Source: a virus. Taken from it: a stretch of 64,000 nucleotides of DNA. Made by a program: the position numbers and the translations under genes. The notes beneath the pieces were generated by a model. The model was not told the DNA's origin. It saw only the letters and a list, made by a program, of their open reading frames with translations, and searched no databases. The first letter of the stretch is position 1, and each line of letters begins with the position of its first letter. Of this stretch, positions 33,246 to 57,144 are shown piece after piece. The stretch is from the IMG/VR virus record IMGVR_UViG_3300045988_183727. One strand, written 5' to 3'.

Positions 33246-33250
33246 TAGAG

Positions 33251-33893: not shown

Positions 33894-33914
33894 ATTTTCT
33901 CCTTTCTTTTTTCG

Positions 33915-36005: not shown

Positions 36006-36020
36006 TTTATTCTCCTTTCT

Positions 36021-36197: not shown

Positions 36198-36227
36198 GCG
36201 TTTACTCCTTTCGTTTTTACTTGTTCT

Positions 36228-36414: not shown

Positions 36415-36421
36415 GTTAAGG

Positions 36422-36925
36422 TTATTCGTTCTTTGCAGTCTTATCGGCGATACCATCGAAGATGTTGCCAACAACACGGATTTCGGTGCCGAGCAGCTTA
36501 CAAAACGGAACAAAATGTCCGTTGTCGTAAGCCTCGTCCATCAGCTCTGCTGCCGTTTTTGTTTTCAAAGACTCACTAACCAGCAGGCCAAAAGAACCAT
36601 TTCGGAACACAACCGTGTTCTCGTTGAAGAGAGGAGTGGGGCGGAATCCTTCAAAGGTCTCCACGATGTCTCCTTCGAACACCTTTGCGCCGTCCTTGTC
36701 GATGATGCCGGTGTACTGCGTTACGGTATCCGCGTAGACACCGCAAACGTCGCGGCTTTCAGCCGTGTCGGACAAGTACGTGTAGATGATGGCGAAGTCC
36801 TTCGGGCTATTATGGGGACGTGCGGCGCCCCCGTAGACCCAAATTCCCGGCAGGGGTGCTCCGGTTGCCATGCGAACTTTCTCGCCATGCCGCCGAACCT
36901 GACCACGAAACAGGATTTCTTTCAT
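36422..36925 (-). CDS. YopX-family phage protein
   Basis: N-terminal MKEILFRGQ matches the characteristic YopX start. Confidence 0.7.
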   Translation of the reverse strand: MKEILFRGQVRRHGEKVRMATGAPLPGIWVYGGAARPHNSPKDFAIIYTYLSDTAESRDVCGVYADTVTQYTGIIDKDGAKVFEGDIVETFEGFRPTPLFNENTVVFRNGSFGLLVSESLKTKTAAELMDEAYDNGHFVPFCKLLGTEIRVVGNIFDGIADKTAKNE

Positions 36926-36946
36926 TGTTTTTTTCTCCTTTCATTT

Positions 36947-37246
36947 TCAATGCAGTCCGTGGAGCTTTTTCCACTGGGCCTTGTCCATCCAAGGTCCGTC
37001 AAAGCTGTCGTCCACACACTCTGTTCTGAGACAGTTAGGGCAGACGAGACAGTCCACAGCCCGCCGGACACGACCGGTCTTGAACCGCACACCATGTTGG
37101 ATGATTTCTTCCTCCTCCACGAAGTAGCTCGGTTCAAGCTCGCAGCCACAGGTGCCGCAGATGCCAAACGGGTTTGCATTGGACTCGTAGGTGCCGTTCT
37201 GTTTTTGGATATTCTCCTGAATCACTGCATGGTAATCCGTCGCCAT
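36947..37246 (-). CDS. zinc-finger small protein
   Basis: CGTCGC...CLVCPNC motifs. Confidence 0.5.
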   Translation of the reverse strand: MATDYHAVIQENIQKQNGTYESNANPFGICGTCGCELEPSYFVEEEEIIQHGVRFKTGRVRRAVDCLVCPNCLRTECVDDSFDGPWMDKAQWKKLHGLH

Positions 37247-37983
37247 CAGAACTTCACCTCCTCAAATTCAATGACCCATACCCACGGGTTTCCGGCCCAC
37301 TTTGACAGGGCCTTGTGTTCGGGAATCGTGCTGTCCCACAGCTCGATAAACTTCTCCTGAAGGGACATGGTGTTCTCGCCGGAGGTACTGTCACAGGTGA
37401 TGCCCTCCTTAGTGAAGTCCTCGTCCTTCATGTCATTCAAATGTTCCAACCGCACATCCGTCACACGCAGGAAAATGCGTGCCGCCTCTTTGGGCATATG
37501 AATGGACGGTGTCCAGTGAATGAGGGAACTCACCTCAGGGGAGTTTTTCAAATCCTCATCCGAATAATCGGCCTTATAGAGCCAGCGGTTCTCGGCGCAG
37601 GCACAGGTCGTTTCGCGAACATACAGGACGTCTCCCTTGTCAAACGGAGCACAGAAGCTGCGAATGACGGTGTTCTCATCAGCGAAAGCGGCCACGAGAC
37701 GTCCGTCTCCGTCGCGATACAGTCCATCCACTTTCTTTCCCGCGAAGTGAAACGCACCACGGCGTGTTACCATCTTGCGCCCCTCGCGGATGGCACGTAC
37801 CATCTCGCCGTTGAACAGGATAGGCTTCGGCTTCTTGTCCTTGAAGATGTCGGGGTCAAAATGGATGCCGGCTTTCTCGCGCAGTTCCTTGCAACGAGAG
37901 CCACGATAGATGTCTGTGTCGCACTCTTTGACAGGACAATGTGAGAGGCAGATTCGCCGCTCATAAGGTTCCTTTCTGGGCAT
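37246..37983 (-). CDS. ASCH-domain protein
   Basis: KPILFNGEMVRAIREGRKMVTRR resembles the ASCH/PUA-like N-terminal motif. Confidence 0.55.
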   Translation of the reverse strand: MPRKEPYERRICLSHCPVKECDTDIYRGSRCKELREKAGIHFDPDIFKDKKPKPILFNGEMVRAIREGRKMVTRRGAFHFAGKKVDGLYRDGDGRLVAAFADENTVIRSFCAPFDKGDVLYVRETTCACAENRWLYKADYSDEDLKNSPEVSSLIHWTPSIHMPKEAARIFLRVTDVRLEHLNDMKDEDFTKEGITCDSTSGENTMSLQEKFIELWDSTIPEHKALSKWAGNPWVWVIEFEEVKF

Positions 37984-38011
37984 ATGTTTTTTCTCCTTTC
38001 TTTTCCGGGGG

Positions 38012-38464
38012 TCACTCGTATTCCTGACAACAAAGGTCGTAGACCTTATGCAGCGCAGCTAACGCCGCCTCAGGAATATCCTGAGTGTCCATATCAAACC
38101 ATTCGCCGAGCAATCCGGTAACATCTCCAAGAAACAGGAACTCGTCGAACACTTCCGACGGCGTACCGGAACCTTTTTTGCTTACCTTGCGCCGCTTATG
38201 TGGTGCAGTTCCGCGACAGGCATCCAGTGCGTCCTGCAGGAGCGATATCGCACCCTTGGGAATTTCACCGGTATCCATTTTCAGCCAATTCGCCAGAGTC
38301 TCGATAACATCATCGAGGAACACATAATTGCACTCGCAGATAATTCTCGCCATCTGCAAGTGTCGAATTGCGTCCGTTGGGATGTCGTTAATGTCACACT
38401 CGGTGAGTTGTCTCTTCAGGTTCTTTACAACCTCATCGCGGGACAAAACCTTGTTTCTTCCCAT
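38012..38464 (-). CDS. hypothetical protein with an internal duplication
   Basis: ORF track; two similar segments, LANWLKMDTGEIP... and LLGEWFDMDTQDIP.... Confidence 0.5.
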   Translation of the reverse strand: MGRNKVLSRDEVVKNLKRQLTECDINDIPTDAIRHLQMARIICECNYVFLDDVIETLANWLKMDTGEIPKGAISLLQDALDACRGTAPHKRRKVSKKGSGTPSEVFDEFLFLGDVTGLLGEWFDMDTQDIPEAALAALHKVYDLCCQEYE

Positions 38465-38491
38465 GTTGTCTCCTTTCTTTTTTTGCGGATT

Positions 38492-39043
38492 TCAACTGCT
38501 CTGCCTCAGCGTATCAGGCACGGCACCGAAGCTCTGCGCGGCTGGGTAGGCGGGAGGGAAGGGGATAGCCCCTCCTCTCGCTACCTGAGCCACCACGAGG
38601 GTGCTAATGCCGCCAGAGGGCGTTTTGTATTGCTGAACGCTTGGCGTGTAGAGAAACCCATCTACCGCTTGTCTCACGGTCATTGTGGGGTATTTTGGCG
38701 CCCGCCAACGATGCTCCTTAGAATAGTAGATTTCCCTGACCCGACACGTTGCAACTGTGACGGGAATGAGGGGATTGTCTACCGTATGTTCACACACGAT
38801 GGCGATAGATGTCTTTCCAATTCTGGAAGCATCCTCCACCATGCGCTGGAGCGCGAGTCTCTGACCATAAGGCATTGCGGCATTACGATGCTTCACCTCA
38901 AAGAAAACATACCCCTTGTCGTGATACTCAATGAGTCCGTCGATGTCGGTAGGATAACAGTTACCCTTGTTTTCAATAGTCATGCCCGTGAAGCTGACGA
39001 GCTGTTTCATCCTTGCGGGAAATCTAATGTAGTCCTTCCTCAC
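38492..39043 (-). CDS. hypothetical protein
   Basis: GTG start 6 nt after aaaggagg; avoids overlap with the upstream gene. Confidence 0.45.
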   Translation of the reverse strand: MRKDYIRFPARMKQLVSFTGMTIENKGNCYPTDIDGLIEYHDKGYVFFEVKHRNAAMPYGQRLALQRMVEDASRIGKTSIAIVCEHTVDNPLIPVTVATCRVREIYYSKEHRWRAPKYPTMTVRQAVDGFLYTPSVQQYKTPSGGISTLVVAQVARGGAIPFPPAYPAAQSFGAVPDTLRQSS

Positions 39044-39071
39044 GGGAGCCTCCTTTCTGCAGGCATCCCCC

Positions 39072-39404
39072 TCAGCGGGGGATGCCTTTGCCGTTTTTGA
39101 GCATGGAAATGACTTTTGCGGCCAAGAAATCGTCGGCCACAAACTGGTTATAGCCGTTTTTCAGACCGTTGCTGGAGAAATCCTCTGTGTCCTTGGCATA
39201 GCGGCACATGGATTTGTCGGAAATAGGTCCATAGCAAGAGTGCTCGGTGGTTACATAGACGCAACTCTCTCTGCAAGTCACGAAGCCAGAGCAGCCGCGC
39301 TTCTGTCCGTTGACTGTGATGTTCTTCAGGTGCGTGGTAATGTCCATGCCCATCTGTTCTGCCAAAGAGGTAAGTCCGTTTTTCAGCTTTACAGAAAGCA
39401 ACAT
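39072..39404 (-). CDS. hypothetical protein
   Basis: ATG (MLLSVK) after aaaggcgg; a hairpin overlaps its stop. Confidence 0.45.
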   Translation of the reverse strand: MLLSVKLKNGLTSLAEQMGMDITTHLKNITVNGQKRGCSGFVTCRESCVYVTTEHSCYGPISDKSMCRYAKDTEDFSSNGLKNGYNQFVADDFLAAKVISMLKNGKGIPR

Positions 39405-39406
39405 TC

Positions 39407-40159
39407 TTACACCGCCTTTCTTTCTACCCAGACATCGCCCAACTTGGCGCACTCGCCGTGGTAAGGGCAGTCGTGATAGGTTTCGCAACCCTCATCAACG
39501 AAGGTCTGGCAGGTGCCACAGTCCAAATTGTGATGCAGAAGACGCTGGATAACATCCCGCGCATTTTCGGTCTCTACCGCGAGGTAGGAAAAAGCTCTCG
39601 CCTTGACGCTTGCATCGTACTCATCCGTGTAGTAGAGGGAAGACGCACAGAGAACCTTTGCGCCGAACACACGGCGGCACTCCTCATCGGAGAGCATTTC
39701 ACCGGCAAACGGGAAAAGACCGCGTCTGCCTCTGAGCTGGTTGCTGACGTGTGTGTGCGCGTTCTTTGCCAACTTAACGCCCTCACGAGCCTCATCCAGT
39801 GTGTCGAAGGACAACGCACACACATCCACAAGAGAACCTTCGCCGATAGGGGAGTGGTTCACAAAAAGCATCGCGTATCTTCTGCTGGGAAGGGTTGCAG
39901 TTCTCGCTGCATCCTCGCCTTCGAGACACACGTAACGCGCCACTTTGTCGTCCCACACATACTTCTCACAGGAGGTGCAGGTGTTCTCTGCCTTATCACA
40001 TCCGGATTTCGACGCAACGACCTTCAGCTCGGCTGCTTTTTTTTCTGCCTCGCACTTATCCACAGCGGCAAAGCACACTTTTCGTCCCTTTTCCTCATCG
40101 AAACGATAGTGCTCACATAACGCACAGGAACCAGCAGGCTTTTCACAGATATATGCCAT
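39407..40159 (-). CDS. Cys-rich hypothetical protein
   Basis: ATG (MAYICEKP) after ggagaaaaat; many CxxC pairs. First gene downstream of cassette C. Confidence 0.5.
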   Translation of the reverse strand: MAYICEKPAGSCALCEHYRFDEEKGRKVCFAAVDKCEAEKKAAELKVVASKSGCDKAENTCTSCEKYVWDDKVARYVCLEGEDAARTATLPSRRYAMLFVNHSPIGEGSLVDVCALSFDTLDEAREGVKLAKNAHTHVSNQLRGRRGLFPFAGEMLSDEECRRVFGAKVLCASSLYYTDEYDASVKARAFSYLAVETENARDVIQRLLHHNLDCGTCQTFVDEGCETYHDCPYHGECAKLGDVWVERKAV

Positions 40160-40214
40160 ATTTTTCTCCTTTCTCCCAGCCTGTGTTAAGGTCTTATGGG
40201 AACAAAAATGTAGT

Positions 40215-40402
40215 GAATATATAAAAAGACAGTCGTTCTCAAAAGAGAACAACTGTCTTGAATGTGATGATGTGACTGAAAACGGAGACAAAGCTCCTTA
40301 TAAAAATATCTTCGTAATTATACTACTATACTACCACATTTCCTTATAATGTCAACGGTTTCGACGCAAAAGAAAAGAGCCGCACAGCGGCTCTTTTCTT
40401 TA
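40215..40402 (-). promoter_or_regulatory. cassette C: terminator + promoter + palindrome + leader hairpin
   Basis: Terminator 40367-40402; -35 40350-40355; ggagacaaagctcc 40284-40297; hairpin 40224-40262. Confidence 0.55.
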
Positions 40403-40412
40403 GGCTTGTTGT

Positions 40413-41372
40413 TCACGCTTCTACGTAAACTGGTTTAAGATACTGTGCGCTGAGAAATTTGCCTCGCAAGGAAGAAATCTTTGCCTCAGCGTCTTTCTCA
40501 CTGATAAACCTCTGAGCATCATCCACGGAGGACGTGTACTGGAGGTTGTTCTTCACGGATTTCTTCACATACTTCCCTGCGTATGCCTTTTCCGTACACA
40601 TAACGACATAGGGCCGAGGCGCCGTCATCTTGCGCGTTACGGTCTTGAACTCAAGTCCCATTACGCTGATAACCTCTCCCATTGCTGCCGTAGCTGCTTC
40701 CGCAGACGGGTAGTGAATGGCATCTCTGACATCCTTTGTGAAATGCACAGTTATTCTTCCAATCACATTATCAAATGCACGCACATAGCCCGCGTTGCGC
40801 TTTTGAACTACAAGCGGACCCTTTACATCCCGCGCTCTGGCAGGTCGCAGGCGCTCGCCGCGCTGTGTTCCGCTGAACGACATGAAGATGTAGTGGTCCT
40901 TGTGTTCTTTTACCAGTTCCCGTGCCTCATCCAGCCAGACTTCCAGCTCATCCGTTGTTCTGACATACCTCCACAGCAGATGGTCGCCGGACGTATAGGG
41001 CATCAGCCCTACATTCAGGTCGTTGACGCCGGGATTGGCGGCGAGGATGTCCTCCAGCGTGGCGGCATCCTTTGCGGCGCGAGCAAACCATTTCCGTGCC
41101 TGAGAGCAAGTGACCCACTTGCTGTTCATCTTCCAGCACTCATCATCGGTGTCGGGGAAGGTGGTATTCACCTTCGCCACAAATTCGTCCTCAGGAAGTT
41201 CCAGAAGATTGATTCCTCCCAGCAAGAACCAGTGGCGCTCGCGAACCTCTCGCGGCTTGAAATTCCTGTCGTAGATGAACTCGGAGCAGTTGTTGCTGCC
41301 ACCCAAGGCAAGGGGAATGATACCACGAGTTGTCTTGATGAAAGAGCGGGCATCAATGATAGTGTATCCCAT
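40413..41372 (-). CDS. hypothetical protein (320 aa)
   Basis: ATG (MGYTIIDARS) after gaaaggagatgtaaaa. Confidence 0.5.
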   Translation of the reverse strand: MGYTIIDARSFIKTTRGIIPLALGGSNNCSEFIYDRNFKPREVRERHWFLLGGINLLELPEDEFVAKVNTTFPDTDDECWKMNSKWVTCSQARKWFARAAKDAATLEDILAANPGVNDLNVGLMPYTSGDHLLWRYVRTTDELEVWLDEARELVKEHKDHYIFMSFSGTQRGERLRPARARDVKGPLVVQKRNAGYVRAFDNVIGRITVHFTKDVRDAIHYPSAEAATAAMGEVISVMGLEFKTVTRKMTAPRPYVVMCTEKAYAGKYVKKSVKNNLQYTSSVDDAQRFISEKDAEAKISSLRGKFLSAQYLKPVYVEA

Positions 41373-41388
41373 TTTTACATCTCCTTTC

Positions 41389-41658
41389 TTACATCTCGCC
41401 ATCCTCGGCAGCGGTTATAATACCGAATCTGAGGTTGTTGTTGATGTCGTAGATACTTAATCCGCTATCAAAGTCCTTGCGGAGCTGCGTCGCAGCGGCC
41501 TCTACGGAGTCTTCGCCGTACTCAAACGTCTCGGACTCGACGCAGGTTGCCACAAGCTCCTTCAGCTTTGCGCGGGAAGTCGTCGCAGAAACCAGACGCA
41601 TAGAGTCTGTTGCTTTCCAAGCGTCACAGGCAAACACGATGAAGATAGGATTACTCAT
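41389..41658 (-). CDS. hypothetical protein (89 aa)
   Basis: ATG (MSNPIFIV) after gaaaggagcaagccgaaa. Confidence 0.4.
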   Translation of the reverse strand: MSNPIFIVFACDAWKATDSMRLVSATTSRAKLKELVATCVESETFEYGEDSVEAAATQLRKDFDSGLSIYDINNNLRFGIITAAEDGEM

Positions 41659-42229
41659 TTTCGGCTTGCTCCTTTCTTCTTCCAACGGTGGCTGCGGGGT
41701 ACGGTGTGGCCCGCTTGTTGTTGCTGTCCATGATTCGCATAACATGGACAAGCATCTCGGAATATGCCCTGTGCATGGTTTCATACCGCGCACGCCATGT
41801 ATTATCATCATTGTCGTTCACGCGAGCACTCAGCCCCATGCTGTAGTACAGCGCGGCGTCGATGTCTACCAGCTCCGCTTCAGTCAGGTGGCAGATATAG
41901 GCTCCCAGCTCATTGACAGAAACTGCCATCGGCTGCTCGCACAGTGCTGTGCTGGGGCGGCTCGTGCTCGTGATGAGTACATGGGAGGGCTGCTGCATCT
42001 TTGGAGATGATGTCGTAAATACGACCTCCACTACACTGCTGTAGCGGTTCAGGTCATCCGAAGATACAACGATTGCGGGACGATGCCCTCTGATAACAGA
42101 GCTATTGGAAGGATGTCCGTCTTTATCGCGGAACTGGCTTCCTTCCGGGGCCCAAGGGGAAAAGATTTCGATTTCTTTCGCATTGACCCAAAAAACATCG
42201 CCCCTGCGGATGTTTCCATTTCTACCCAT
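41651..42229 (-). CDS. PemK/MazF-family toxin-like endoribonuclease with a C-terminal extension
   Basis: RGDVFWVN...RGHRPAIVVSSDDLNRYSSVVEVVFTTS matches the MazF/PemK core. Confidence 0.6.
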   Translation of the reverse strand: MGRNGNIRRGDVFWVNAKEIEIFSPWAPEGSQFRDKDGHPSNSSVIRGHRPAIVVSSDDLNRYSSVVEVVFTTSSPKMQQPSHVLITSTSRPSTALCEQPMAVSVNELGAYICHLTEAELVDIDAALYYSMGLSARVNDNDDNTWRARYETMHRAYSEMLVHVMRIMDSNNKRATPYPAATVGRRKEQAENE

Positions 42230-42437
42230 AGATTCTTGTCTCCTTTCCTTCAGAATTGGTTACACACGACGGAATGCCGAAAAAAGACAGAACCGCTTTA
42301 AGCGGCTCTGTCTCCATGCAGTCGATATGACACTGTTTGTTTTCGTAGGGTGCCTCGACAAATTCTTCGCCAACCTCAATGGGTTCGTGGCAAATGCAGC
42401 ATTCGCCGGCGTAACGAATTTCCTTTTTTGCTTTCAC
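42222..42437 (-). CDS. zinc-finger small protein (possible antitoxin partner)
   Basis: Overlaps the mazF-like start by 8 nt; CCICHE...CHIDC motifs. Confidence 0.4.
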   Translation of the reverse strand: MKAKKEIRYAGECCICHEPIEVGEEFVEAPYENKQCHIDCMETEPLKAVLSFFGIPSCVTNSEGKETRIYG

Positions 42438-42458
42438 AATGAATTTACTCCTTTCTTT

Positions 42459-42662
42459 TCAAAGTTGCCGAGACAGTGTTACGGCTGCCTGCTGGCGTCG
42501 TCTTTCGCAGTTTCTTCGCTGCACTTCGATAGCTTCGCGAGCCTCCGCAATACACTGCTTCGCACGCCTATCCTGTTCAGAAGAGAAAGATGCGTAGCGC
42601 TCAGAGTAGACGGAATCCATACGCTCGGCTCTCTCAATTAACTCATACAGCGGTGTAGACAT
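42459..42662 (-). CDS. hypothetical small protein
   Basis: ORF track. Confidence 0.35.
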   Translation of the reverse strand: MSTPLYELIERAERMDSVYSERYASFSSEQDRRAKQCIAEAREAIEVQRRNCERRRQQAAVTLSRQL

Positions 42663-42678
42663 AGCTTCTCCTCCTCGT

Positions 42679-42951
42679 TTATTGAATGTTCATGCCTACG
42701 GCGCGAGGACCTTCTTTGGACCAAGTTTCCTTGAGCCAGTGATAGGTGATTGTGCTATCTTCGGGACTCTTGTCTGGGTAGCAGGGAAGGTATGCTGCGG
42801 AGTACAAGTCTCTGCACTGACTGAAGTACACATGATTCCAGTCAGCCCACACATCACCAAGAGAACGGATAGCTCGCTTGAACGACCGAAAGCTCTGTGG
42901 CGTGTGAACTACGATGGCATTTGCTCCGTTCCACTTTCCATTCCACATCAT
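42679..42951 (-). CDS. hypothetical protein
   Basis: ORF track. Confidence 0.4.
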   Translation of the reverse strand: MMWNGKWNGANAIVVHTPQSFRSFKRAIRSLGDVWADWNHVYFSQCRDLYSAAYLPCYPDKSPEDSTITYHWLKETWSKEGPRAVGMNIQ

Positions 42952-43217
42952 TGCACTTCACCTCCCTGATACGTCGGGCGGCTGCGTCTGTTACGGAACG
43001 GAGGCATCACCGGTGCGGTGTAGCTGGTCAGCTCACCCGTCATTTTGACAGGCACACACTGGAGCAATCCGCGCTGTTTTCGATACTGGTGAGCCAAGTT
43101 GTTGCGAGCCTGTTTCTCAGAAACCGCCATAGTCGTCCCGCCCCACTTATTTGTGGTAATGTCGTCATAGACACGAACGGGTCCGAGATAGCTGAAAACC
43201 ATTTTTGCCTGTGCCAT
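42948..43217 (-). CDS. hypothetical protein, first gene downstream of cassette D
   Basis: ORF track; RBS ggagaaaacac. Confidence 0.4.
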   Translation of the reverse strand: MAQAKMVFSYLGPVRVYDDITTNKWGGTTMAVSEKQARNNLAHQYRKQRGLLQCVPVKMTGELTSYTAPVMPPFRNRRSRPTYQGGEVQ

Positions 43218-43249
43218 TGTGTTTTCTCCTTTCTTATTGTGTTGTAATG

Positions 43250-44610: not shown

Positions 44611-45575
44611 TTGTTTTCCTCCTTAAAGTGTTCAAGTCTTTCGGAAAACTTTTGCAGCGCTTTTCTAAACTCAATTTTGCAGGTGGTTGACATGAAATAA
44701 TAGGCGGAAACAATATCTTCTGTCGTAGAGTTTTTCGCATAAAGTCGCATTGTGCTTGGCATCCCCATGAGCCAGTGTAAAGAGACGCCAAAGGCAGCCG
44801 CTATATGCGGCAGAATTCTTTCGTTGCTTGTGGAGCAGGAGGGTCTCACCAACATGATATTCGCCAACTCGTGAATGACATCCTTTTGTTTATCATCTAA
44901 TTCAAAATTGCCTTTTCCGGACTGAATCAATTCATCCAAATCGAGAATATCCTGTCGCTTAAATGAACATCTGTGGGAAAAAACGTACTGTACTCGCGCA
45001 GAAGGGCGCAGCAATAAGCTGCGTTTTTTATCATCCCAGAATTGATGTATCCACATCGTATCAATCATGCCGAGAGCGGACTCTCTTATGCATCCGTCTC
45101 TTATCGTTTCTGGAAAGCTATCTACAAGATTATAGACTTCTTGAACATCTGGCGGTAGGCTGCTGAAAGCTGGAAAGTTTTTATCTCCGAATCGAATCAT
45201 TTCCTCGTAAGATATGTCCAACTCGGCAAGAATCCGAAAAACGATTTGCCAGTTAAATCCCTGCCAGCCTATAAATCGCTGTGTTTCTCCGTTTGTAACG
45301 GGAGTTTTATCAAATAAAAGGGCTGGCAGCTTTTCTTCTGGACAATTAAGCTGTTCGGCTAACCGCAGCTTTTTCATTTCTGCCCTGTATGGCGTGGTGT
45401 CTGTGATAATGTTGTTTACTCTTGCCATGTTGCCTGCATCCTCCGCAATTCTTAATTTGCGGAGGAGCAGGACTATAGAGGTATAGACAGTTGTTGAGAC
45501 GTTTTCTCCGTACCTTATATCGTCTCCAGCTCGTGCCGGCTTTGTAGGATTTGTTCTTTTATAAATAGCACTCAT
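44607..45575 (-). CDS. hypothetical protein (322 aa)
   Basis: ORF track; overlaps its neighbours by 4 nt. Confidence 0.55.
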   Translation of the reverse strand: MSAIYKRTNPTKPARAGDDIRYGENVSTTVYTSIVLLLRKLRIAEDAGNMARVNNIITDTTPYRAEMKKLRLAEQLNCPEEKLPALLFDKTPVTNGETQRFIGWQGFNWQIVFRILAELDISYEEMIRFGDKNFPAFSSLPPDVQEVYNLVDSFPETIRDGCIRESALGMIDTMWIHQFWDDKKRSLLLRPSARVQYVFSHRCSFKRQDILDLDELIQSGKGNFELDDKQKDVIHELANIMLVRPSCSTSNERILPHIAAAFGVSLHWLMGMPSTMRLYAKNSTTEDIVSAYYFMSTTCKIEFRKALQKFSERLEHFKEENK

Positions 45576-47647
45576 TTTCTTGATGCCTCCTTTGCGGTAT
45601 TGTCGGTCTCCTGACCTCCCGCGATTATGGAATCGACCATTTTGCAGGAACCTTTTCCTCTGTTCAAAAGTGTCTTTGCGTCCTCCTTTGCCTGTTCGTA
45701 CTCAGCGGGGTATGCCATCATAAGGGTCATATATCGGTTCCATCCGGATTGTTCTGTGCCGAGGAAATCTCCGGCACCTCTAATGCGGAGGTCCGCCTCT
45801 GCAATTTCAAACCCGTTATTGGTCTGTACCATGGCGTTCAGTCTCTCCATCGCAGCCGGCGTGGGCGACGCGCCTGCTTCCAGCACACAATAGGACTGTA
45901 CGCTGCTCCGCCCTACACGCCCTCTCAACTGGTGCAGACTGGAAAGCCCGAAACGGTCCGCGTTTACAATGACCATCATTGTCGCGGTAGGGACATTTAC
46001 GCCAACCTCCACAACGGTTGTACTGACAAGCACATCTACTTGACCATCCTTGAATCGCGAGAGAATGTCCTCCGTTTCTGTCTTTCCCATCTTGCCTGTT
46101 ACTGTTTCGATGCGGACGCCATACGGCTCCAGAACAGAACGGTATTCTGCGCTGACCTCCTCGACAGACTGTACGCCTTCCAGTTTTTCGCTTCTATCAA
46201 TAAGCGGACAGACAACATAGGTTTGATACCCCTTTTGTTTCTGCAGCAGAATGAAGCGAAAGATTTTTTCTTTACTTGTGGCAATACCGGTAATAACTGG
46301 AAGACGTCCGTCCGGCATCGTTTTAATGGTGTGGAGCTGCACGGTATCCCCATAAATTACCTGAGCCAGACTGCGGGGGATGGGGGTGGCAGACATAGTA
46401 ATAGAATGAACACCGCCTGAAGCCTTTTCGATGAGCGCTGTACGCTGGTCAACGCCAAACTTGTGTTCCTCATCCGTTACGGTTAAGGCGAGATTTTTAT
46501 ACTCCACATCTTCTCCAATGATGGACTGTGTTCCAACAATGAGCTGTGCCTTGCCTTCCTTGATGGCGGCCAAGGCTTTTTTCTTTTCGCTCGTCTTCAA
46601 ATCGCTGCCAAGCCAAACAACACTTACGTCAAACGGTTCCGCCAGAGCAGAGAGGTCCTCGTAGTGCTGACGCGCCAACACCAGCGTTGGAGCCATCACC
46701 GCTGCCTGATACCCATTCTCAGCCATGGTCATCATAAGGCAAAAGGCAACGATGCTCTTTCCACAACCGACATCACCCTGCACAAGCGCGTTGATGCGAT
46801 GCCCGTCTGCTGCAAATTGAGTCATGCTCTCAATCGCGTCCATCTGGTCTTTTGTGAGAGAATAGGGCAGGGACTTCTTAATCTTTTCAATCCAGCCGTT
46901 TGTTTTGACGGAGAATTGGCTACCTTTAGAAATCTTTCGTGCGGCCCATTCGTTAGCCATAGCAAAATATACGAGGTCTTCCTGAAGGAGTCGGGATTGA
47001 CCATCCTTAATATCCTGCTCGGAAACGGGGAAGTGCAGCTTCTTGAGTGAAGTCCAAAGGCTTGAAAGACCTTTTTTGTCGAGGAAATCATTGGGAAGCG
47101 TTTCAATAAGTCCGATAGTTCTGTCGGAAGCCTCCTGAATCTTTTCTCTCAGGTAGGCATCGCTCACGCCTCCGATTTGAGCGTACACAGGACGAATGCC
47201 CGGTGCCTGCCCATAGGCAGGCTCGAAAATCTCCGGTGCCGTCATGGTGTAGTTGTTGTATTTCTCGCTGTATCCGACCTTTCCAGCCACATAAACCTCC
47301 TGCCCTGTGCAAGTGGAAATCTTGCGGAAGAGGTAGTTTTGCCGGAACCATGTAATAACGAGTTTTTCTCCGCTTGGAAGCACCGTGCAGTGTGCGATAA
47401 TCATAGGGACATGAGAGGAAGTCTGCACATAAGAACCCTTATAGCGCAGTTCTTGGCCGAAGGACTTCACTTCGTCTACACGTACAAGACAAGCCTGCTC
47501 CGCACCATCTATGAGATGCGTTGCAAGCTGCCGGTAGTCCTTATAGCTTTTTGGGATATAACGCAGAAGGTCTTCTGCTGAGTGGATACCTTTTTTCTCG
47601 AAACGCTTTTCCTTTTGTGCGTTTACTCCAATGACGGATAGCTTCAT
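45572..47647 (-). CDS. recG: ATP-dependent DNA helicase RecG
   Basis: Walker A GDVGCGKS, DEEHKFGVDQR, RGRVGRS. Start MKLSVIG after ggaggtgag. Confidence 0.85.
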   Translation of the reverse strand: MKLSVIGVNAQKEKRFEKKGIHSAEDLLRYIPKSYKDYRQLATHLIDGAEQACLVRVDEVKSFGQELRYKGSYVQTSSHVPMIIAHCTVLPSGEKLVITWFRQNYLFRKISTCTGQEVYVAGKVGYSEKYNNYTMTAPEIFEPAYGQAPGIRPVYAQIGGVSDAYLREKIQEASDRTIGLIETLPNDFLDKKGLSSLWTSLKKLHFPVSEQDIKDGQSRLLQEDLVYFAMANEWAARKISKGSQFSVKTNGWIEKIKKSLPYSLTKDQMDAIESMTQFAADGHRINALVQGDVGCGKSIVAFCLMMTMAENGYQAAVMAPTLVLARQHYEDLSALAEPFDVSVVWLGSDLKTSEKKKALAAIKEGKAQLIVGTQSIIGEDVEYKNLALTVTDEEHKFGVDQRTALIEKASGGVHSITMSATPIPRSLAQVIYGDTVQLHTIKTMPDGRLPVITGIATSKEKIFRFILLQKQKGYQTYVVCPLIDRSEKLEGVQSVEEVSAEYRSVLEPYGVRIETVTGKMGKTETEDILSRFKDGQVDVLVSTTVVEVGVNVPTATMMVIVNADRFGLSSLHQLRGRVGRSSVQSYCVLEAGASPTPAAMERLNAMVQTNNGFEIAEADLRIRGAGDFLGTEQSGWNRYMTLMMAYPAEYEQAKEDAKTLLNRGKGSCKMVDSIIAGGQETDNTAKEASRK

Positions 47648-47770
47648 ATATGTTCTCACCTCCGTGTGGTGGGAAAATGTTAGGGTGTCGGGGTGCTTTT
47701 CGTGAACTACTCGGCAATAAATCACCGAGGATTCTTGCTTACTTCTTATAAAGAGGGCTTACACACCCTT

Positions 47771-47800
47771 ATTATAAACACGAACATAAAATTTTGTCAA
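47771..47800 (-). promoter_or_regulatory. minus-strand promoter of the conserved family, upstream of recG
   Basis: On the minus strand: cttgacaaaattttatgttcgtgtttataat. Confidence 0.4.
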
Positions 47801-47961
47801 GTGTGTTAGAGAGAAAATTTACTGGATGTCAACCTTTTTTCTTTTGCATATTCGTTATTATTGCCAACTATTTTTCCGTAAAATACAGCTTGCTTTAGTT
47901 TGCGCGGCACGCTTTGCGGCGTATAAACTCGCGGTATAGCTTTTTTTTCTGATAATTAGAC

Positions 47962-47990
47962 TTGACATTTTTATATGTTCGTGTTAGTAT
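47962..47990 (+). promoter_or_regulatory. promoter of the conserved family
   Basis: cttgacatttttatatgttcgtgttagtat. Confidence 0.45.
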
Positions 47991-47996
47991 AACAGC

Positions 47997-48107
47997 GTGG
48001 ACAGGGCAAGAAAGGCTCGTTCGAAGGGCTCGTGCCTAAAATGACAATATTCTTGCGATTGTAAGAATAAGCGCCTAAATTGCCCGTCCCGTTTTCTTCT
48101 TTCTTTA
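47997..48107 (+). ncRNA. candidate ~110-nt structured small RNA (promoter to U-tract)
   Basis: The closing stem ggacagggcaa / ttgcccgtcc encloses internal hairpins and is followed by cgttttcttctttcttt. No credible ORF. Confidence 0.35.
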
Positions 48108-48484
48108 ATTACACTCATAAGCACAATAAAGTCAGCTCCCTGAGGGAAGTGTGCGGGAGTTGCTTCGACTTTCGCGTTGTTCTCCATGCGGGGAGGTTCT
48201 GGCGGTTCGAGTCCGCACGACGCGCCTTCTGTTTTCGCTGCTTCTATCTTCACCTCCGTCTTTTTAACGAGCAGCGGACACAGAAACATCTCTCAATATG
48301 ATAGCGTAGCATAACTGGTAATGCCGTACCTCTCTCACAGGTAACGATATGTTGGTTCAACTCCAGCCGCTATTGCCAGCCGGCGTTCTACCCACCCCGC
48401 CGACATCAACTCTCTTCGGCGCTGGCGGCCTCCGTGCAGACGGGATTACACGTGATAAGCGGAGGCTGCCAGCACCACCAAAAT

Positions 48485-48560
48485 GCTGGTGTAGCTCAGT
48501 AGGCAGAGCGGCGCACTCGTAACGCGCAGGTCGTGGGTTCGACCCCCACCGTCAGCTCCA
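48485..48560 (+). tRNA. tRNA-Thr(CGT), CCA encoded
   Basis: Cloverleaf with anticodon loop ctCGTaa and T-loop ttcgacc. Confidence 0.85.
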
Positions 48561-48652
48561 TTCCATACTCATTCTCCTTCAAGTGAAGCCCCCGTGTAAC
48601 AGGTCTTTTGAAAAGTGCTTTCAGCCTCGTTGTGCGGGGGCTTCACGACTAT

Positions 48653-48728
48653 GCTGATGTAGCTCAGTTGGCAGAGCGGCGGATTTGTAAACCGCAGGTC
48701 GGGGGTTCAAGGCCCTCCATCAGCTCCA
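48653..48728 (+). tRNA. tRNA-Thr(TGT), CCA encoded
   Basis: Cloverleaf with anticodon loop ttTGTaa and T-loop ttcaagg. Confidence 0.85.
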
Positions 48729-48763
48729 TTAAAACCATGTGCTTTTGTGGTGTTTTTATATGC

Positions 48764-48840
48764 GCGGATGTCGTCTAATTTGGTGAGACACCAGCCTTCC
48801 AAGCTGGTCATTGCGGGTTCGAGTCCCGTCGTCCGCTCCA
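48764..48840 (+). tRNA. tRNA-Gly(TCC), CCA encoded
   Basis: Perfect anticodon stem ccagc/gctgg, loop ctTCCaa, T-loop ttcgagt. Confidence 0.85.
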
Positions 48841-48841
48841 A

Positions 48842-48867
48842 GGACACCGTAAAGTGTGTCCTTTTTT
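48842..48867 (+). terminator. terminator after the tRNA cluster
   Basis: ggacac cgtaaagt gtgtcc tttttt. Confidence 0.55.
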
Positions 48868-49229
48868 CTTTATCTGCTTATTTGTCCTGTGTTTTTCGGA
48901 CAACATCGGTGAGCGCAAAAGTCGCCTGAAGCGTGAGAAGCGAGCTGCCTGCATCTGTTTTGCGGGCGGTGGCGTGATAAGGGTGAAACTCTGCGCTTTC
49001 AGTAGCCGTAAGCAGGTGAGCAAAAGTCTCTGCGAACGCCTGCATGGTTCGCGGGACAAGGGAAGCCGGAAAAATAAGTAAACGCGGGCCGAGCGCAGAG
49101 GTTGTTGGCGTATTCCAGACGTGGGTGCTGCCTTTTATGCTGTGCTTGTTTGCGTGGGGTCCGGTGTTCTCGCAGTCTGGATGGTTGCTGCGAGAGGTGC
49201 CAAAACTTATTGCGAAAGGACGGAGTTCT

Positions 49230-50288
49230 ATGCCAACTACATTTCAAGCGTTTAAGTATCGCATTTACCCGACTGATGAGCAGGTCGAAATCATTGAAAA
49301 GACTTTCAAGTGCTGCCGGTTTGTGTGGAACCATTTCCTTGAGCGAACCTCCAAAATCTATGACCGTCGGCAGGAAAAGATGACGACCTTCGACTGTATG
49401 AAGGTTCTCACGGAGATGCGGGAGCGCTGGCCTTGGCTTGCGGACTGCGGCTGTACGGCAGAGAGATATGCCATCATTGATTTGTTTGAGGCGCGAAAGG
49501 CGTTCTTCCGCCGCATTAAAGCGGGGGAGAAGCCCGGTTATCCCAAATTTAAGGGCGCGTCCCATCCGACACAGAGTTTTACGACCGCTGGTACTATCTA
49601 TGTGACGGACGATTACATTCAGGTTCCGTTTGGAGGACAGTATCAGAAAATCAACAAGCTCAGGCGAGGGACGGGGCGCCCCATCGAAGGGTCTCCCCGC
49701 GAGGTCACTATTTCTCGGTCTGCTACCGGAAAATACTGGGCATCTGTCTGCTGTAAAGTAGAGCGAGACACGCTGCCTATTGTGGACGGCGAGGTGGGAA
49801 TCAGTCTCGGCCTGAAGGAGTTGGCTATTGACAGCAACGGCGTTCACTATGAGAACCCGAAGCATCTGAGCAAGTCTGCAAAGCGGTTGGCACGTGAGCA
49901 GCGGCGTCTATCCCGCAAGAAGAAGGGCTCTGTCAACTACGAGAAGCAGCGGCGCAAGGTAGCCGGCGTCCATGAGCATATTGCCAATCAGCGCAATGAC
50001 TACCGGCATAAAATCAGCCGTGAACTTGTCAACGCAAACCAGCTTATTGCCGTTGAGAAGGTGGCCGTTAAGCCCTTAGTTGAGGGCAATGAGCAGGCTA
50101 AAAGCATCCTCGATGCCGGCTGGTCTGAACTTACCGGTATGATAAAGTATAAGGCGGACTGGGCTGGACGCACTCTGGTGGACGTAGATACCGCCACCGT
50201 AGCACCGGAAGCCAAGCATGATGAGGCACTGGCACAGGTCGTGCTGTCCGAAGGTCAGCGCATGGCTTCCGAGCAGAAGCCTGCCTAA
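49230..50288 (+). CDS. TnpB-like (IS605 OrfB family) protein, probably nuclease-dead and C-terminally truncated
   Basis: N-terminal FKYRIYPTDEQ. RuvC-I reads GISLGLKELAIDSNG, so Ser replaces the catalytic Asp. RuvC-II IAVEKV. ILDAGWSELTGMIKYKADWAGRTLVDVD. There is no zinc finger or RuvC-III; an unrelated 30-aa tail follows. Confidence 0.75.
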   Translation: MPTTFQAFKYRIYPTDEQVEIIEKTFKCCRFVWNHFLERTSKIYDRRQEKMTTFDCMKVLTEMRERWPWLADCGCTAERYAIIDLFEARKAFFRRIKAGEKPGYPKFKGASHPTQSFTTAGTIYVTDDYIQVPFGGQYQKINKLRRGTGRPIEGSPREVTISRSATGKYWASVCCKVERDTLPIVDGEVGISLGLKELAIDSNGVHYENPKHLSKSAKRLAREQRRLSRKKKGSVNYEKQRRKVAGVHEHIANQRNDYRHKISRELVNANQLIAVEKVAVKPLVEGNEQAKSILDAGWSELTGMIKYKADWAGRTLVDVDTATVAPEAKHDEALAQVVLSEGQRMASEQKPA

Positions 50289-55659: not shown

Positions 55660-57144
55660 ATGACGATGGTCTATGTGCAAAATAAAGACGGTAAACCTTT
55701 GATGCCGACAACTCGCTATTGTTATGTGCGCCTTCTCCTGAAGGAGAAGAAAGCACGAGTTGTTTGCACTACCCCGTTTACCATCCAGTTGAACTATGAT
55801 ACCCCAGACATCACCCAAGACTTGATTCTTGGCATCGACCCCGGCAGAACGAACATTGGTGTCGCTGTCGTCAAGGAGGACGGCCAATGCGTGTTCTCCG
55901 CACATCTGGAGACGCGCAATAAGGACGTACCTCTTCTGATGCAGAAGCGTGCCGGTTTCCGTAAGCAGCATCGCACGTTGGACCGGCGCCGCAAGCGCCA
56001 GCGTCGTGCGAAGGCTGCTGGGACCACCGTTGCCGGGGGTTCTGTCGAGAGATTGCTCCCCGGCTATGAGAAGCCCATTGTGTGCCACCATATCCGCAAT
56101 AAGGAGGCGCGGTTCAATAACCGTAGCCGCCCTGTGGGATGGTTGACACCTACAGCAAATCACCTGCTGCAAACCCACATCAACCTGATTGCAAAGGTTG
56201 CGAAGTTCTTACCTATCACGAAAGTGGTGGTGGAGCTGAACCGCTTTGCATTCATGGCGATGGATAATCCCAATATCCGTCGGTGGGAGTACCAGCAGGG
56301 GCCGTTGTACGGACTGGGTTCCGTGGAGGATGCGGTGTACGCACAGCAGGATGGACATTGCCTGTTCTGCAAGAAGCCCATTGACCATTACCATCATGTT
56401 GTTCCACGCCACAAGGGTGGAAGTGAGACGCTGGCTAACCGGTGTGGGCTTTGTGCGAAGCATCACGACCTCGTCCATAAGGACAAGGCGTGGGCGGATA
56501 AGCTGGTCACACGCAAGGAAGGTATGAATAAAAAGTACCACGCCTTGAGTGTTCTGAACCAGATTATCCCGCATCTCATGGAGTATCTCGGAGGCGAGAC
56601 TCTCTACGATGTCTATGCCACGGATGGTAAGTCCACCAAGGGCTTCCGCGTTGCCAAGAACGTGCCGAAAGAACATTACACGGATGCCTACTGTATCGCC
56701 TGTTCCATTTTGGATGCGAATACGAAGGTCTCCACACCTGCCGAACCCTTTAAGCTGAAGCAGTTCCGTCGGCACGACCGGCAATCCTGCATCCGCCAAA
56801 TGGTTGACCGGAAGTACCTTCTGGATGGCAAGGTCGTTGCAGCAAACCGGCATAAGGCCATTGAGCAAAAGTCCGATAGCCTGCAGGAGTTCCGTGAGGC
56901 TTACGGCGATGCTGCGGTATCGCAGCTCACCGTGAAACCTCACTCGCCCCAGTACAAGGACATGACTCGTATCATGCCGGGGGCGGTGATGGATTTCGGT
57001 GGCGCTGTCGGGATTCTTCAGGGGTCGGAAGGCTTCCATAACGGCAAGCCGGACTACTATAAATCTACGAAAGGAGAACGGGTTTTAACGAGGAGATGTG
57101 CGCTTCTCGCACAGAACGCAGGCATGGTTTTCATTCCCGCCTGA
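55660..57144 (+). CDS. iscB: IscB RNA-guided endonuclease (HNH + split RuvC), apparently intact
   Basis: PLMP motif (KPLMPTTRY), Ruv[11 protein letters not shown], Arg-rich bridge, HNH motifs (C..C...HH..N..C..C..H), RuvC-II VVVELN, RuvC-III HYTDAY. Confidence 0.85.

What the first reader, a model, noticed from the sequence alone, without database searches (positions are those of the whole stretch)
47997..48107. Strong promoter driving a ~110-nt hairpin-rich RNA that ends in a U-tract: sRNA candidate
A family-type promoter (TTGACA, 17 nt, TAGTAT) is followed by a long-range stem ggacagggcaa / ttgcccgtcc that encloses two internal hairpins and a GGCTCG direct repeat, then cgttttcttctttcttt. 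It has no ORF and sits between recG and the tRNA cluster. It could be a standalone sRNA or a leader or attenuator for the downstream tRNA operon.
Basis: seen in the sequence. Interest (0 to 1): 0.5.

Follow-up and report, generated by a model that had tools for sequence, protein, structure and literature searches.

The report
Structured leader of mobile-element tRNA operon
The hairpin-rich stretch is real, but it is not a self-contained small RNA ending at a U-tract: it is the variable first domain of a longer conserved non-coding leader (closed 5' stem domain, pyrimidine tract, pseudoknot) that heads a tRNA operon on a human-gut mobile element and matches no described RNA family.

Summary
The 95-nt domain folds far better than shuffles (z -3.7 to -5.2).

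Relatives change the interpretation. I found the same locus in four lineages of a human-gut mobile element: W (this window), X, Z1 and Z2. All four have:
- a consensus promoter divergent from recG;
- a 5'-terminal closing stem whose sequence differs completely between lineages, around an insert of variable size;
- an accessible pyrimidine tract;
- a conserved linker;
- a hairpin whose loop pairs back to the linker, forming an H-type pseudoknot (13 pairs, 99% paired, 5 compensatory).

The "stem plus U-tract" is not a conserved terminator. In Z1, 12 non-U-rich bases separate stem and tract. In Z2 the stem is almost all A-U. The tRNAs have no promoter of their own, and the only canonical terminator follows tRNA-Gly.

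The element is therefore the 5' domain of a ~170-nt leader. A covariation-supported tRNA-like element downstream could release that leader by RNase P cleavage.

No Rfam family matches. Function is inferred: most likely 5' protection and processing. A trans-acting anti-ribosome-binding-site role for the pyrimidine tract is the interesting alternative. Interest is moderate to low.

The parts
47962..47990 (+). Sigma-70/sigma-A type promoter: TTGACA, 17 nt, TAGTAT, with TG upstream of the -10. Predicted start near G47997.
   Evidence: 10/12 match. The hexamers are invariant in W and X. The equivalent TTGACA-17-TATTAT promoter (11/12) is at the same place in Z2 and Z1.
47771..47800 (-). Divergent recG promoter: TTGACA, 18 nt, TATAAT (12/12).
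   Evidence: The same 12/12 promoter is present in L153 and L159.
47997..48091 (+). The finding itself: a 5'-terminal closed domain. Closing stem P1 (47999-48009 with 48080-48089), short stem P2 (48013-48016 with 48073-48076), hairpin P3 (~48017-48044), hairpin P4 (48048-48069).
   Evidence: MFE -37.3, z -5.2. Every lineage closes its 5' end with a P1 stem of unrelated sequence. P4 and P3 are replaced by different hairpins at the same positions in X1, X2 and X3. The interior is only about 50% identical between W and X.
48092..48106 (+). Pyrimidine tract UUUUCUUCUUUCUUU. Invariant in W and X, with related tracts in Z1 and Z2. Predicted single-stranded.
   Evidence: Unpaired probability 0.65-0.90 in all lineages. 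With G-U pairs allowed it is complementary in phase to the element's stereotyped ribosome-binding site AGAAAGGAGAAAA.
48107..48132 (+). Conserved single-stranded linker (A.ACUC..AAGC.C ... A.AA). It contains the 5' strand of the pseudoknot, GCACA, at 48121-48125.
   Evidence: Alignment A4; pair counts.
48133..48162 (+). Hairpin B: an 8-bp stem (48133-48140 with 48155-48162) and a conserved 14-nt loop UGAGGGAAGUGUGC. The last five loop bases (48150-48154) pair with the linker, giving an H-type pseudoknot.
   Evidence: Stem: 100% paired, 3 of 8 pairs with compensatory changes. Stem plus pseudoknot: 13 pairs, 99% paired, 5 compensatory; slid controls are 22-57% paired.
48173..48224 (+). tRNA-like element C without a D arm. 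Acceptor-like stem (48173-48179 with 48218-48224), a hairpin (48180-48195) and a T arm with loop UUCGAGU (48201-48217). Candidate RNase P site that would release the leader.
   Evidence: 17 pairs, 96% paired, 5 compensatory. Not called by ARAGORN or the Rfam tRNA model. Z1 has a fuller tRNA-like gene here. Two contigs carry a TnpB insertion inside it.
48229..48283 (+). Long stem D (48229-48242 with 48270-48283) with a pyrimidine-rich loop. It is the last module before the first tRNA.
   Evidence: The stem is kept in X with a different sequence.
48300..48840 (+). Co-transcribed tRNA genes: an atypical Glu(CUC), Thr(CGU), Thr(UGU) and Gly(UCC), separated by structured spacers.
   Evidence: The same set is present in X.
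48840..48873 (+). The only canonical intrinsic terminator on this strand, directly after tRNA-Gly.
   Evidence: 8-bp stem, tail TTTTTTCTTTAT.

Best explanation
The 110-nt element is the 5'-terminal closed stem-loop domain of a longer (~170-nt) conserved non-coding leader. The leader is transcribed from a consensus promoter that diverges from recG in a small family of human-gut, probably Oscillospiraceae-associated, mobile elements.

The conserved module runs in this order: 5' closing stem P1 around a variable insert, an accessible pyrimidine tract, a conserved linker, and hairpin B, whose loop pairs back to the linker as an H-type pseudoknot.

In this window the module is the 5' external transcribed spacer of an operon of tRNA-like and tRNA genes. 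RNA polymerase reads through the "U-tract" and stops at 48840-48873.

Most likely role of the finding itself: a 5' protective and insulating structure. Because the first nucleotides are held in a helix, 5'-end-dependent decay (RNase J1 or RNase Y type in Firmicutes) would be hindered, and the downstream modules would fold independently. RNase P-type cleavage at the tRNA-like element (48173) would release a ~176-nt leader RNA.

Shown here: the promoter, the folds, their conservation and covariation, the absence of a conserved terminator, and the absence of any known family. Inferred: transcription itself, the processing step, and the stabilising role.
For: - Promoter conserved in four lineages.
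- P1 closure in every lineage with unrelated sequences: GGACAGGGCAA/UUGCCCGUCC, GGA.AGGG/CCCU.UCC, CGGCGAGCAG/CUGCUUCGCCG, AAUAUAGAAU/AUUCUAUAUU.
- Domain z-scores of -5.2, -3.7, -2.1, -1.4, -2.25, -2.4 and -4.4.
- More closing pairs than in shuffles: the fraction of shuffles reaching the observed count is 0.004, 0.07, 0.022, 0.068 and <0.002.
- One P1 pair goes from G-C (W2) through A.C (W1) to A-U (X).
- Pseudoknot and hairpin B: 99% paired, 5 of 13 pairs compensatory.
- tRNA-like C: 96% paired, 5 of 17 pairs compensatory.
- Only one canonical plus-strand terminator, after tRNA-Gly. There is no usable promoter between 48107 and 48300, because the sole candidate would start inside the tRNA.
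- One copy per element.
- The P1 5' strand starts 1-9 nt from the predicted transcript start in all lineages.
Against: - There are no expression data, so the transcript ends are predicted only.
- The domain boundaries in Z1 and Z2 were chosen after the stems had been seen, which flatters the shuffle tests.
- The X-lineage domains are only marginally more stable than shuffles (z -1.4 to -2.25).
- A purely protective role does not explain why the first 14 nt are invariant between W and X while their pairing partner changed.
- It also does not explain why the pyrimidine tract and the pseudoknot loop are conserved in sequence.
- In Z2 the module precedes an HU gene rather than tRNAs, so "tRNA leader" describes only some lineages.
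Confidence: 0.5

Rival explanations
1. The leader is a trans-acting regulatory RNA. It would be freed by RNase P-type cleavage at the tRNA-like element, or by leaky termination at hairpin B in Z1 and Z2. Its accessible pyrimidine tract would pair with the purine-rich ribosome-binding sites of the element's own genes, or of host genes, and reduce their translation. In effect it would be a weakened copy of the 16S rRNA 3' tail. The 5' domain and the pseudoknot would serve as protective end structures.
For: - The tract is invariant in W and X while its flanks diverge.
- It is predicted unpaired in all lineages.
- With G-U pairs allowed it matches 15 of 15 positions at 8 window sites. Six of these are ribosome-binding sites of minus-strand genes (27854, 29793, 32833, 33895, 37989, 40162).
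- The positions of its three C residues rank 2nd of 455 possible arrangements.
- The stereotyped site AGAAAGGAGAAAA occurs at 10 or more gene starts.
- The Z1 and Z2 tracts have the same relation to their own ribosome-binding sites.
- The layout (5' stem, single-stranded seed, structured 3' end) resembles Firmicute sRNAs with pyrimidine-rich seeds; this comparison is from general knowledge.
- Hairpin B is followed by UUUU(U) in Z1 and Z2.
Against: - Any CU-rich tract complements AG-rich ribosome-binding sites, so specificity is weak.
- The pairing relies on G-U wobbles exactly at the Shine-Dalgarno core.
- No covariation between tract and targets can be shown.
- No transcript or processing data exist.
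- The exact 16-nt complement at 58370-58385 lies in Lys codons of a recombinase and may be a low-complexity coincidence.
Confidence: 0.25
2. One reading: P1 together with the U-rich run is an intrinsic terminator or attenuator. It would yield a ~110-nt RNA and limit read-through into the tRNAs.
For: In W, a GC-rich 10-bp stem ends 2 nt before UUUUCUUC. X keeps a weaker stem followed by G and UUUU. Attenuators in long leaders are documented in Gram-positive conjugative plasmids (PMC13401043).
Against: - The "loop" is a 70-nt branched insert, and the terminator scan does not call this site.
- In Z1 the sequence UAUUCCAUAUAA separates the stem from the tract. In Z2 the stem is almost entirely A-U.
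- The tract is conserved over 15 nt, far more than a U-tail needs.
- The tRNAs depend on read-through.
- No alternative local terminator or antiterminator pairing of the pLS20 zipper type is present.
Confidence: 0.1
3. The leader modifies RNA polymerase or recruits Nus factors, giving processive antitermination. It would work like the rrn boxB-boxA-boxC leader, phage HK022 put RNA, or conAn2 of pLS20, so that the untranslated, hairpin-rich operon is transcribed to its end.
For: It sits immediately downstream of a strong promoter at the head of a long untranslated, highly structured operon. It has a hairpin followed by a U/C-rich block, UUCUUUAAUUAC, with a loose resemblance to boxA. Antitermination leaders are widespread in Gram-positive mobile elements (PMC8191782).
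Against: - The rrn leaders of two Oscillospiraceae (L210, L211) carry a different boxA-like block, ACCUUGUAAAUUAAACAACG, and share no similarity with this leader.
- The boxA-like resemblance is not kept in X, Z1 or Z2.
- The operon is only ~900 nt long, with no internal canonical terminators to bypass.
Confidence: 0.08
4. The conservation inside the element acts at the DNA level: a second tandem promoter (ATGACA/TTGACA ... AAGAAT/TATAAA) or a regulator binding site. On this view the RNA fold is incidental.
For: (A/T)TGACA is conserved between W and X. The scan calls ATGACA-16-AAGAAT at 48041-48068 with 9/12. The first 14 transcribed nucleotides are invariant while their pairing partner varies.
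Against: - In X the best -10-like hexamer is 19 nt from TTGACA and is degenerate in X2 (TGTAAA).
- Z1 and Z2 lack this block altogether yet keep the closing stem.
- Hairpins are replaced by different hairpins at the same positions.
Confidence: 0.05

Closest known systems
Transcribed spacers of tRNA and rRNA operons that persist as functional RNAs, such as the E. coli 3'ETS-leuZ sponge (from general knowledge, not tested here)
   Same: A non-coding segment co-transcribed with tRNAs from the operon promoter. It could be released by tRNA-processing enzymes and might act after release.
   Different: This one is a 5' leader with a conserved pseudoknot and a closed 5' domain. It sits on a mobile element. 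One lineage (Z2) has the module in front of an HU gene with no tRNAs. No sequence relationship exists.
5'-terminal stabiliser stem-loops of Firmicute transcripts, such as the aprE and ermC leaders (from general knowledge)
   Same: A helix that engages the first few nucleotides of the transcript, conserved as a structure rather than as a sequence.
   Different: Here the helix closes a large and variable insert (28-75 nt, a three-way junction in W and X). It is followed by further conserved modules.
Small stable RNAs (species 1 and 2) of the phage T4 tRNA gene cluster (from general knowledge)
   Same: Structured non-tRNA RNAs, partly tRNA-like, encoded within a mobile element's tRNA operon and matured with the tRNAs.
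   Different: There is no sequence or structural similarity. The element here does not look like a phage: 10 large ORFs have no PHROG hit.
Zipper-type attenuator cATT and the conAn antitermination leader of pLS20-family conjugative plasmids (PMC13401043, PMC8191782)
   Same: A long structured leader behind a strong promoter on a Gram-positive mobile element, with long-range pairing between leader segments.
   Different: cATT needs a local intrinsic terminator whose strands can instead extend a central stem. No such local terminator exists here. The cargo is tRNAs or HU, not a conjugation operon.
Pyrimidine-rich-seed sRNAs of Firmicutes, such as RoxS/RsaE (from general knowledge)
   Same: An accessible pyrimidine-rich tract between structured modules, complementary to Shine-Dalgarno regions.
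   Different: The tract is U-rich and lacks CCC motifs. There is no canonical terminator of its own. No Rfam match was found.

Membership tests
Any Rfam 15 family | Covariance-model match at or near the family's gathering score | tested here: not met
   At gathering thresholds only tRNAs were found in the window. E<=10 scans of 47700-49100 and of 47985-48180 gave only noise, at most 13 bits against eukaryotic snoRNA models.
Intrinsic (Rho-independent) terminator | A compact GC-rich hairpin with a short loop | tested here: not met
   The stem encloses a 70-nt branched insert, and the scan does not call it. In Z2 the stem is AAUAUAGAAU/AUUCUAUAUU.
Intrinsic (Rho-independent) terminator | A U-tract immediately 3' of the stem, conserved in relatives | tested here: not met
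   Met in W and X. In Z1, 12 non-U-rich bases intervene.
Stand-alone sRNA gene | Own promoter | tested here: met
   Consensus promoter conserved in four lineages.
Stand-alone sRNA gene | Own 3' end, and downstream genes with an independent promoter | tested here: not met
   There is no canonical terminator before 48840 and no usable promoter for the tRNAs. Hairpin B followed by UUUU(U) in Z1 and Z2 is a possible weak terminator only.
5' leader (external transcribed spacer) of a tRNA operon | Lies between the operon's only promoter and the first tRNA, on the same strand, with no intervening terminator | tested here: met
   The same arrangement is present in X.
5' leader (external transcribed spacer) of a tRNA operon | Removed by RNase P and other processing enzymes | not testable with these tools
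   The covariation-supported acceptor and T-arm mimic at 48173-48224 is a plausible substrate, but no cleavage data exist.
rrn-type antitermination leader (boxB-boxA-boxC) | A boxA sequence matching that of the host lineage | tested here: not met
   Oscillospiraceae rrn leaders carry ACCUUGUAAAUUAAACAACG. The leader here has no counterpart conserved across its lineages.
Zipper-type attenuator (cATT of pLS20) | A local intrinsic terminator whose 5' strand can instead pair with an upstream segment to extend a central long stem | tested here: not met
   No local terminator hairpin lies next to the tract. Family definition taken from PMC13401043.
tRNA, tRNA-Sec or tmRNA (for element C and hairpin B) | Called by ARAGORN or by the Rfam tRNA-clan models | tested here: not met
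   (lowered thresholds, intron and mitochondrial modes). GGAAGUG-type hits in genomes turned out to be genuine tRNA-Sec genes unrelated to this locus.
Protein-coding leader peptide | A conserved reading frame with a ribosome-binding site | tested here: not met
   The 7-9-codon frame starting at (A/T)TGACA has no Shine-Dalgarno sequence and differs in length and sequence between lineages. Longer ORFs are broken by indels in X.

The most novel reading that the evidence does not exclude
The conserved module (closed 5' domain, pyrimidine tract, pseudoknot) is a previously undescribed class of mobile-element regulatory RNA. After release from the tRNA precursor, its pyrimidine tract would act as a weakened mimic of the 16S rRNA 3' tail. 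It would pair with the element's unusually stereotyped ribosome-binding sites (AGAAAGGAGAAAA) and so adjust translation of whole operons of the element.
Probability: 0.2. Interest if true: 0.6.

Novelty: new member of a known kind. Interest (0 to 1): 0.33.

Why it matters
If the reading holds, it adds a covariation-supported, unclassified RNA motif: a pseudoknotted hairpin with a closed 5' domain and a pyrimidine tract. The motif occurs on a prevalent human-gut mobile element; its RecG clusters have more than 1,000 member sequences.

It also shows tRNA operons on such elements carrying elaborate leaders and tRNA-like processing signals.

The practical lesson for the scan is that a long-range stem followed by a U-rich run need not be a terminator. 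Here comparison with relatives moved the functional core about 30-60 nt downstream of the flagged interval.

Only the anti-ribosome-binding-site idea would be of wider interest, and it is untested.

Tried and rejected
- **Phage and plasmid collections.** INPHARED had no match, near or distant. PLSDB matched only the tRNAs.
- **Species genomes.** The RecG scan of GTDB genomes found nothing.
- **DNA pattern scans.**
  - CGTGGACNGGGCAAG gave mostly chance hits.
  - The hairpin-B plus T-loop pattern and the linker plus hairpin-B pattern in IMG/VR returned only W and X contigs.
  - The metagenome scan returned only W and X plus 4 chance hits.
  - The genome scan returned ordinary tRNAs, tRNA-Sec genes and chance matches, none related to this locus.
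- **RecG relatives at 55-57% identity.** These sit in RNaseH-RecJ-RecG operons without the module.
- **Homologues of the two genes downstream of recG.** These gave only X sublineages.
- **MAFFT-based consensus folding of the finding across W and X.** It recovered only the outer stem, because the inner hairpins are not alignable by sequence. My first attempt used wrong coordinates.
- **c-di-GMP-II riboswitch.** I recalled a resemblance (ACAGGGCAA, CCUAAA). No covariance-model signal appeared, and both motifs are absent from Z1 and Z2.
- **tmRNA, tRNA-Sec and D-armless tRNA readings of 48130-48230.** Rejected.
- **Leader peptide and longer ORFs.** Rejected.
- **Pairing of the pyrimidine tract with the hairpin-B loop GAGGGAAG.** Possible in all lineages, but it needs two or three G-U pairs and has a mismatch in Z1. 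There is no covariation, so it stays open.
- **GGCTCG repeat.** Not conserved.

Full report
**Observation**

- The promoter is TTGACA (47962-47967), a 17-nt spacer, and TAGTAT (47985-47990) with a TG just upstream. The scan scores it 10/12. The region holds 6 promoter-like sites against 1.6 expected.
- From the predicted start, G47997, the RNA folds into a closing stem: GGACAGGGCAA (47999-48009) with UUGCCCGUCC (48080-48089).
- The stem encloses a 4-bp stem and two hairpins.
- MFE is -37.3 kcal/mol. z is -3.99 with the tail and -5.2 for the 95-nt domain alone.
- CG and then UUUUCUUCUUUCUUU (48092-48106) follow.
- The GGCTCG repeat is not conserved even among near-identical variants.
- The ORFs that overlap mechanically are broken by indels in relatives.

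**Where it comes from**

- recG (45572-47647, minus strand) has no close relative in one-genome-per-species GTDB.
- It does occur at 87-100% identity on 23 IMG/VR contigs of up to 192 kb and on human-gut metagenome contigs.
- Ten large ORFs have no PHROG hit.
- Pfam shows a TQ-ester/SpaA adhesin, a topoisomerase, a flotillin, a VWA protein, TnpB, an IscB-like RRXRR protein and a large serine recombinase.
- The tRNA-Thr genes are closest to those of Oscillospiraceae and related Clostridia.
- I therefore treat this as a large mobile element of gut Clostridia. It may not be a phage.

**Operon context**

- On the plus strand the only canonical terminator between 47000 and 49500 follows tRNA-Gly, at 48840-48863.
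- Between 48107 and the first tRNA (48300) the only promoter-like site is CGGACA-16-TATGAT at 48275-48302. It would start transcription inside the tRNA.
- The tRNAs therefore depend on the 47962 promoter, and transcription must pass the "U-tract".

**Relatives**

Two lineages came from IMG/VR: W (this window, 14 sequence variants) and X (RecG 87% identical; sublineages X1 to X3).

A profile search then found the same locus in the 67%-RecG relatives. These are Z1 (L159) and Z2 (L153-L158), taken from Logan assemblies.

All four lineages keep the divergent promoter pair:
- recG: TTGACA-18-TATAAT, 12/12.
- Leader: TTGACA-17-TA(G/T)TAT, 10-11/12.

**The flagged element across lineages**

The interior of the 5' domain is poorly conserved, about 50% identical between W and X. 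In Z1 and Z2 it is replaced by shorter, unrelated sequence.

What is kept is the closure. In every lineage the first 1-9 nt of the predicted transcript begin a helix with the segment just before the pyrimidine tract:
- W: GGACAGGGCAA / UUGCCCGUCC
- X: GGA.AGGG / CCCU.UCC
- Z1: CGGCGAGCAG / CUGCUUCGCCG
- Z2: AAUAUAGAAU / AUUCUAUAUU

| Lineage | Domain z-score | Fraction of shuffles reaching the observed closing-pair count |
|---|---|---|
| W1 | -5.2 | 0.004 |
| W2 | -3.7 | not run |
| X1 | -2.1 | 0.07 |
| X2 | -1.4 | not run |
| X3 | -2.25 | 0.022 |
| Z1 | -2.4 | 0.068 |
| Z2 | -4.4 | <0.002 |

I chose the Z1 and Z2 domain boundaries after seeing the stems, so those shuffle tests are flattered.

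Within W and X one closing pair runs from G-C through A.C to A-U. The two inner hairpins are replaced by different hairpins at the same positions in X1, X2 and X3.

So the finding is a genuine structural domain, but its defining property is a closed 5' end, not its sequence.

**Why it is not a conserved terminator**

- W has a GC-rich stem 2 nt from UUUU. X has a weaker version of the same arrangement.
- Z1 has UAUUCCAUAUAA between stem and tract.
- The Z2 stem is almost entirely A-U.
- The tract is conserved over 12-15 nt, and conservation continues beyond it.

**The conserved core lies downstream of the flagged interval**

Alignment A4 shows four blocks shared by W, X, Z1 and Z2:
- the pyrimidine tract;
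- a linker, A.ACUC..AAGC.C...A.AA;
- an 8-bp hairpin B (48133-48140 with 48155-48162);
- a conserved 14-nt loop, (U/A)GAGGGAAG(U/C)G(U/C)GC.

The hairpin stem is 100% paired, with 3 compensatory pairs.

The last five loop bases pair with the linker:
- W: GCACA / UGUGC
- X: GCGCA / UGCGC
- Z: GCACG / CGUGC

For stem plus pseudoknot, 13 pairs are 99% paired and 5 are compensatory. Slid controls are 22-57% paired. This is an H-type pseudoknot. The pseudoknot helix directly abuts the 3' strand of the hairpin-B stem in sequence.

No Rfam family matches any part of the leader, even at E<=10 on a 196-nt query.

**Further downstream**

- At 48173-48224 is a tRNA-like element without a D arm. It has an acceptor-like stem, a hairpin and a T arm with a GGUUCGAGUCC loop.
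- It is 96% paired with 5 compensatory pairs, but neither ARAGORN nor the Rfam tRNA model calls it.
- Z1 has a fuller tRNA-like gene at this place.
- Z2 has none. There the module is followed by an HU gene.
- The acceptor and T-arm mimic is a plausible RNase P substrate. Cleavage would release a ~176-nt leader (47997-48172). This step is inferred.

**The pyrimidine tract**

- It is predicted unpaired in all lineages, 0.65-0.90 against a whole-RNA mean of 0.41-0.48.
- TTTTCTCCTTTCTTT-like sequences recur on the plus strand at the starts of minus-strand genes: 13 matches within 2 mismatches against 0.28 expected.
- This reflects a stereotyped ribosome-binding site, AGAAAGGAGAAAA, at 10 or more genes.
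- With G-U pairs allowed, the tract pairs over all 15 nt with 8 window sites. Six of these are such ribosome-binding sites.
- The positions of its three C residues rank 2nd of 455 arrangements.
- The tract thus resembles the antisense of the element's ribosome-binding site, and from general knowledge the Firmicute 16S 3' tail, with C-to-U changes at the Shine-Dalgarno core.
- This supports, but does not prove, a trans-acting anti-ribosome-binding-site role. CU-rich and AG-rich low-complexity sequences match each other easily.

**Other readings tested**

- Oscillospiraceae rrn leaders (L210, L211) have a different boxA-like block and share no similarity with this leader. An rrn-type antitermination leader is therefore unlikely.
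- The pLS20 zipper attenuator needs a local terminator, and none is present here.
- A tandem promoter inside the element scores 9/12 in W. In X the homologous -10-like hexamer lies 19 nt from TTGACA and is degenerate in X2, and the block is absent from Z1 and Z2.

**Verdict**

- The element is the variable 5' domain of a ~170-nt conserved, unclassified leader module.
- In this window it serves as the 5' external transcribed spacer of a tRNA operon on a gut mobile element.
- My best mechanistic reading is 5'-end protection and folding insulation, with release by tRNA-type processing (confidence about 0.5).
- The anti-ribosome-binding-site sRNA reading comes next (about 0.25).
- A terminator or attenuator is unlikely as a family feature (about 0.1).

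Noticed in passing
L015 8075-9446 and L008 (window-equivalent ~48200): Two otherwise W-type contigs carry a ~1.38-kb TnpB-only insertion inside the tRNA-like element, between its hairpin and T arm. GGTTCTGG flanks it on both sides. The tRNA-like element is therefore either dispensable or a preferred target.
   Followed up: partly
window 48300-48378: The first tRNA, Glu(CUC), is atypical. It scores 43 bits against ~60 for its neighbours, is 79 nt long, and has an extra base before the anticodon stem and a long variable region. It is conserved with the same anticodon loop, CUCUCAC, in lineage X.
   Followed up: partly
window 48421-48473 and 48583-48646: The tRNA spacers contain long perfect stems of 14 bp and 12 bp, preceded by pyrimidine-rich runs such as CAUUCUCCUUCAA. 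Lineage X keeps stems at the same places with different sequences.
   Followed up: partly
window 27409-43236, minus-strand gene starts: At least ten genes share an unusually long stereotyped ribosome-binding site, AGAAAGGAGAAAA. The 15-mer AAAGAAAGGAGAAAA is identical at four of them.
   Followed up: partly
window 58370-58385: The exact 16-nt complement of the leader's pyrimidine tract lies in the Lys-rich N-terminal codons of a large serine recombinase (58360-59937). It could be a target or a low-complexity coincidence.
   Followed up: no
window 49044-50288 and 55660-57144: A TnpB (OrfB_IS605) gene lies directly downstream of the tRNA operon, on the same strand. This placement is kept in X and Z1. 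An IscB-like RRXRR protein lies 6 kb further on. Their guide RNAs were not examined.
   Followed up: no
L010 8990-9260 (minus strand); L205 1972-2060; L209 727-815: Lineage X has an extra ~330 nt between stem D and tRNA-Glu, with a further tRNA-like gene. ARAGORN calls an 89-nt tRNA-Trp(cca) in L205 and L209 but nothing in L010.
   Followed up: no
L153 1142-1760 (minus strand): In lineage Z2 the same promoter, closed 5' domain, pyrimidine tract and pseudoknot precede an HU-family DNA-binding protein gene, with no tRNA or tRNA-like element. Hairpin B is followed there by UUUUU, so it could be a leaky terminator.
   Followed up: partly
whole window; IMG/VR contigs L001-L023: IMG/VR lists these contigs as viral. 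However, ten large ORFs have no PHROG hit, and the recognisable genes look more like a conjugative or integrative element or a large plasmid: a TQ-ester/SpaA adhesin (37-4800), a topoisomerase (8891-11206), a flotillin and a VWA protein.
   Followed up: partly
window 8839-8868: This is the only other copy of the extended promoter, CTTGACATT...TTCGTGCTAATAT, upstream of the topoisomerase gene. It is not followed by a similar leader.
   Followed up: yes
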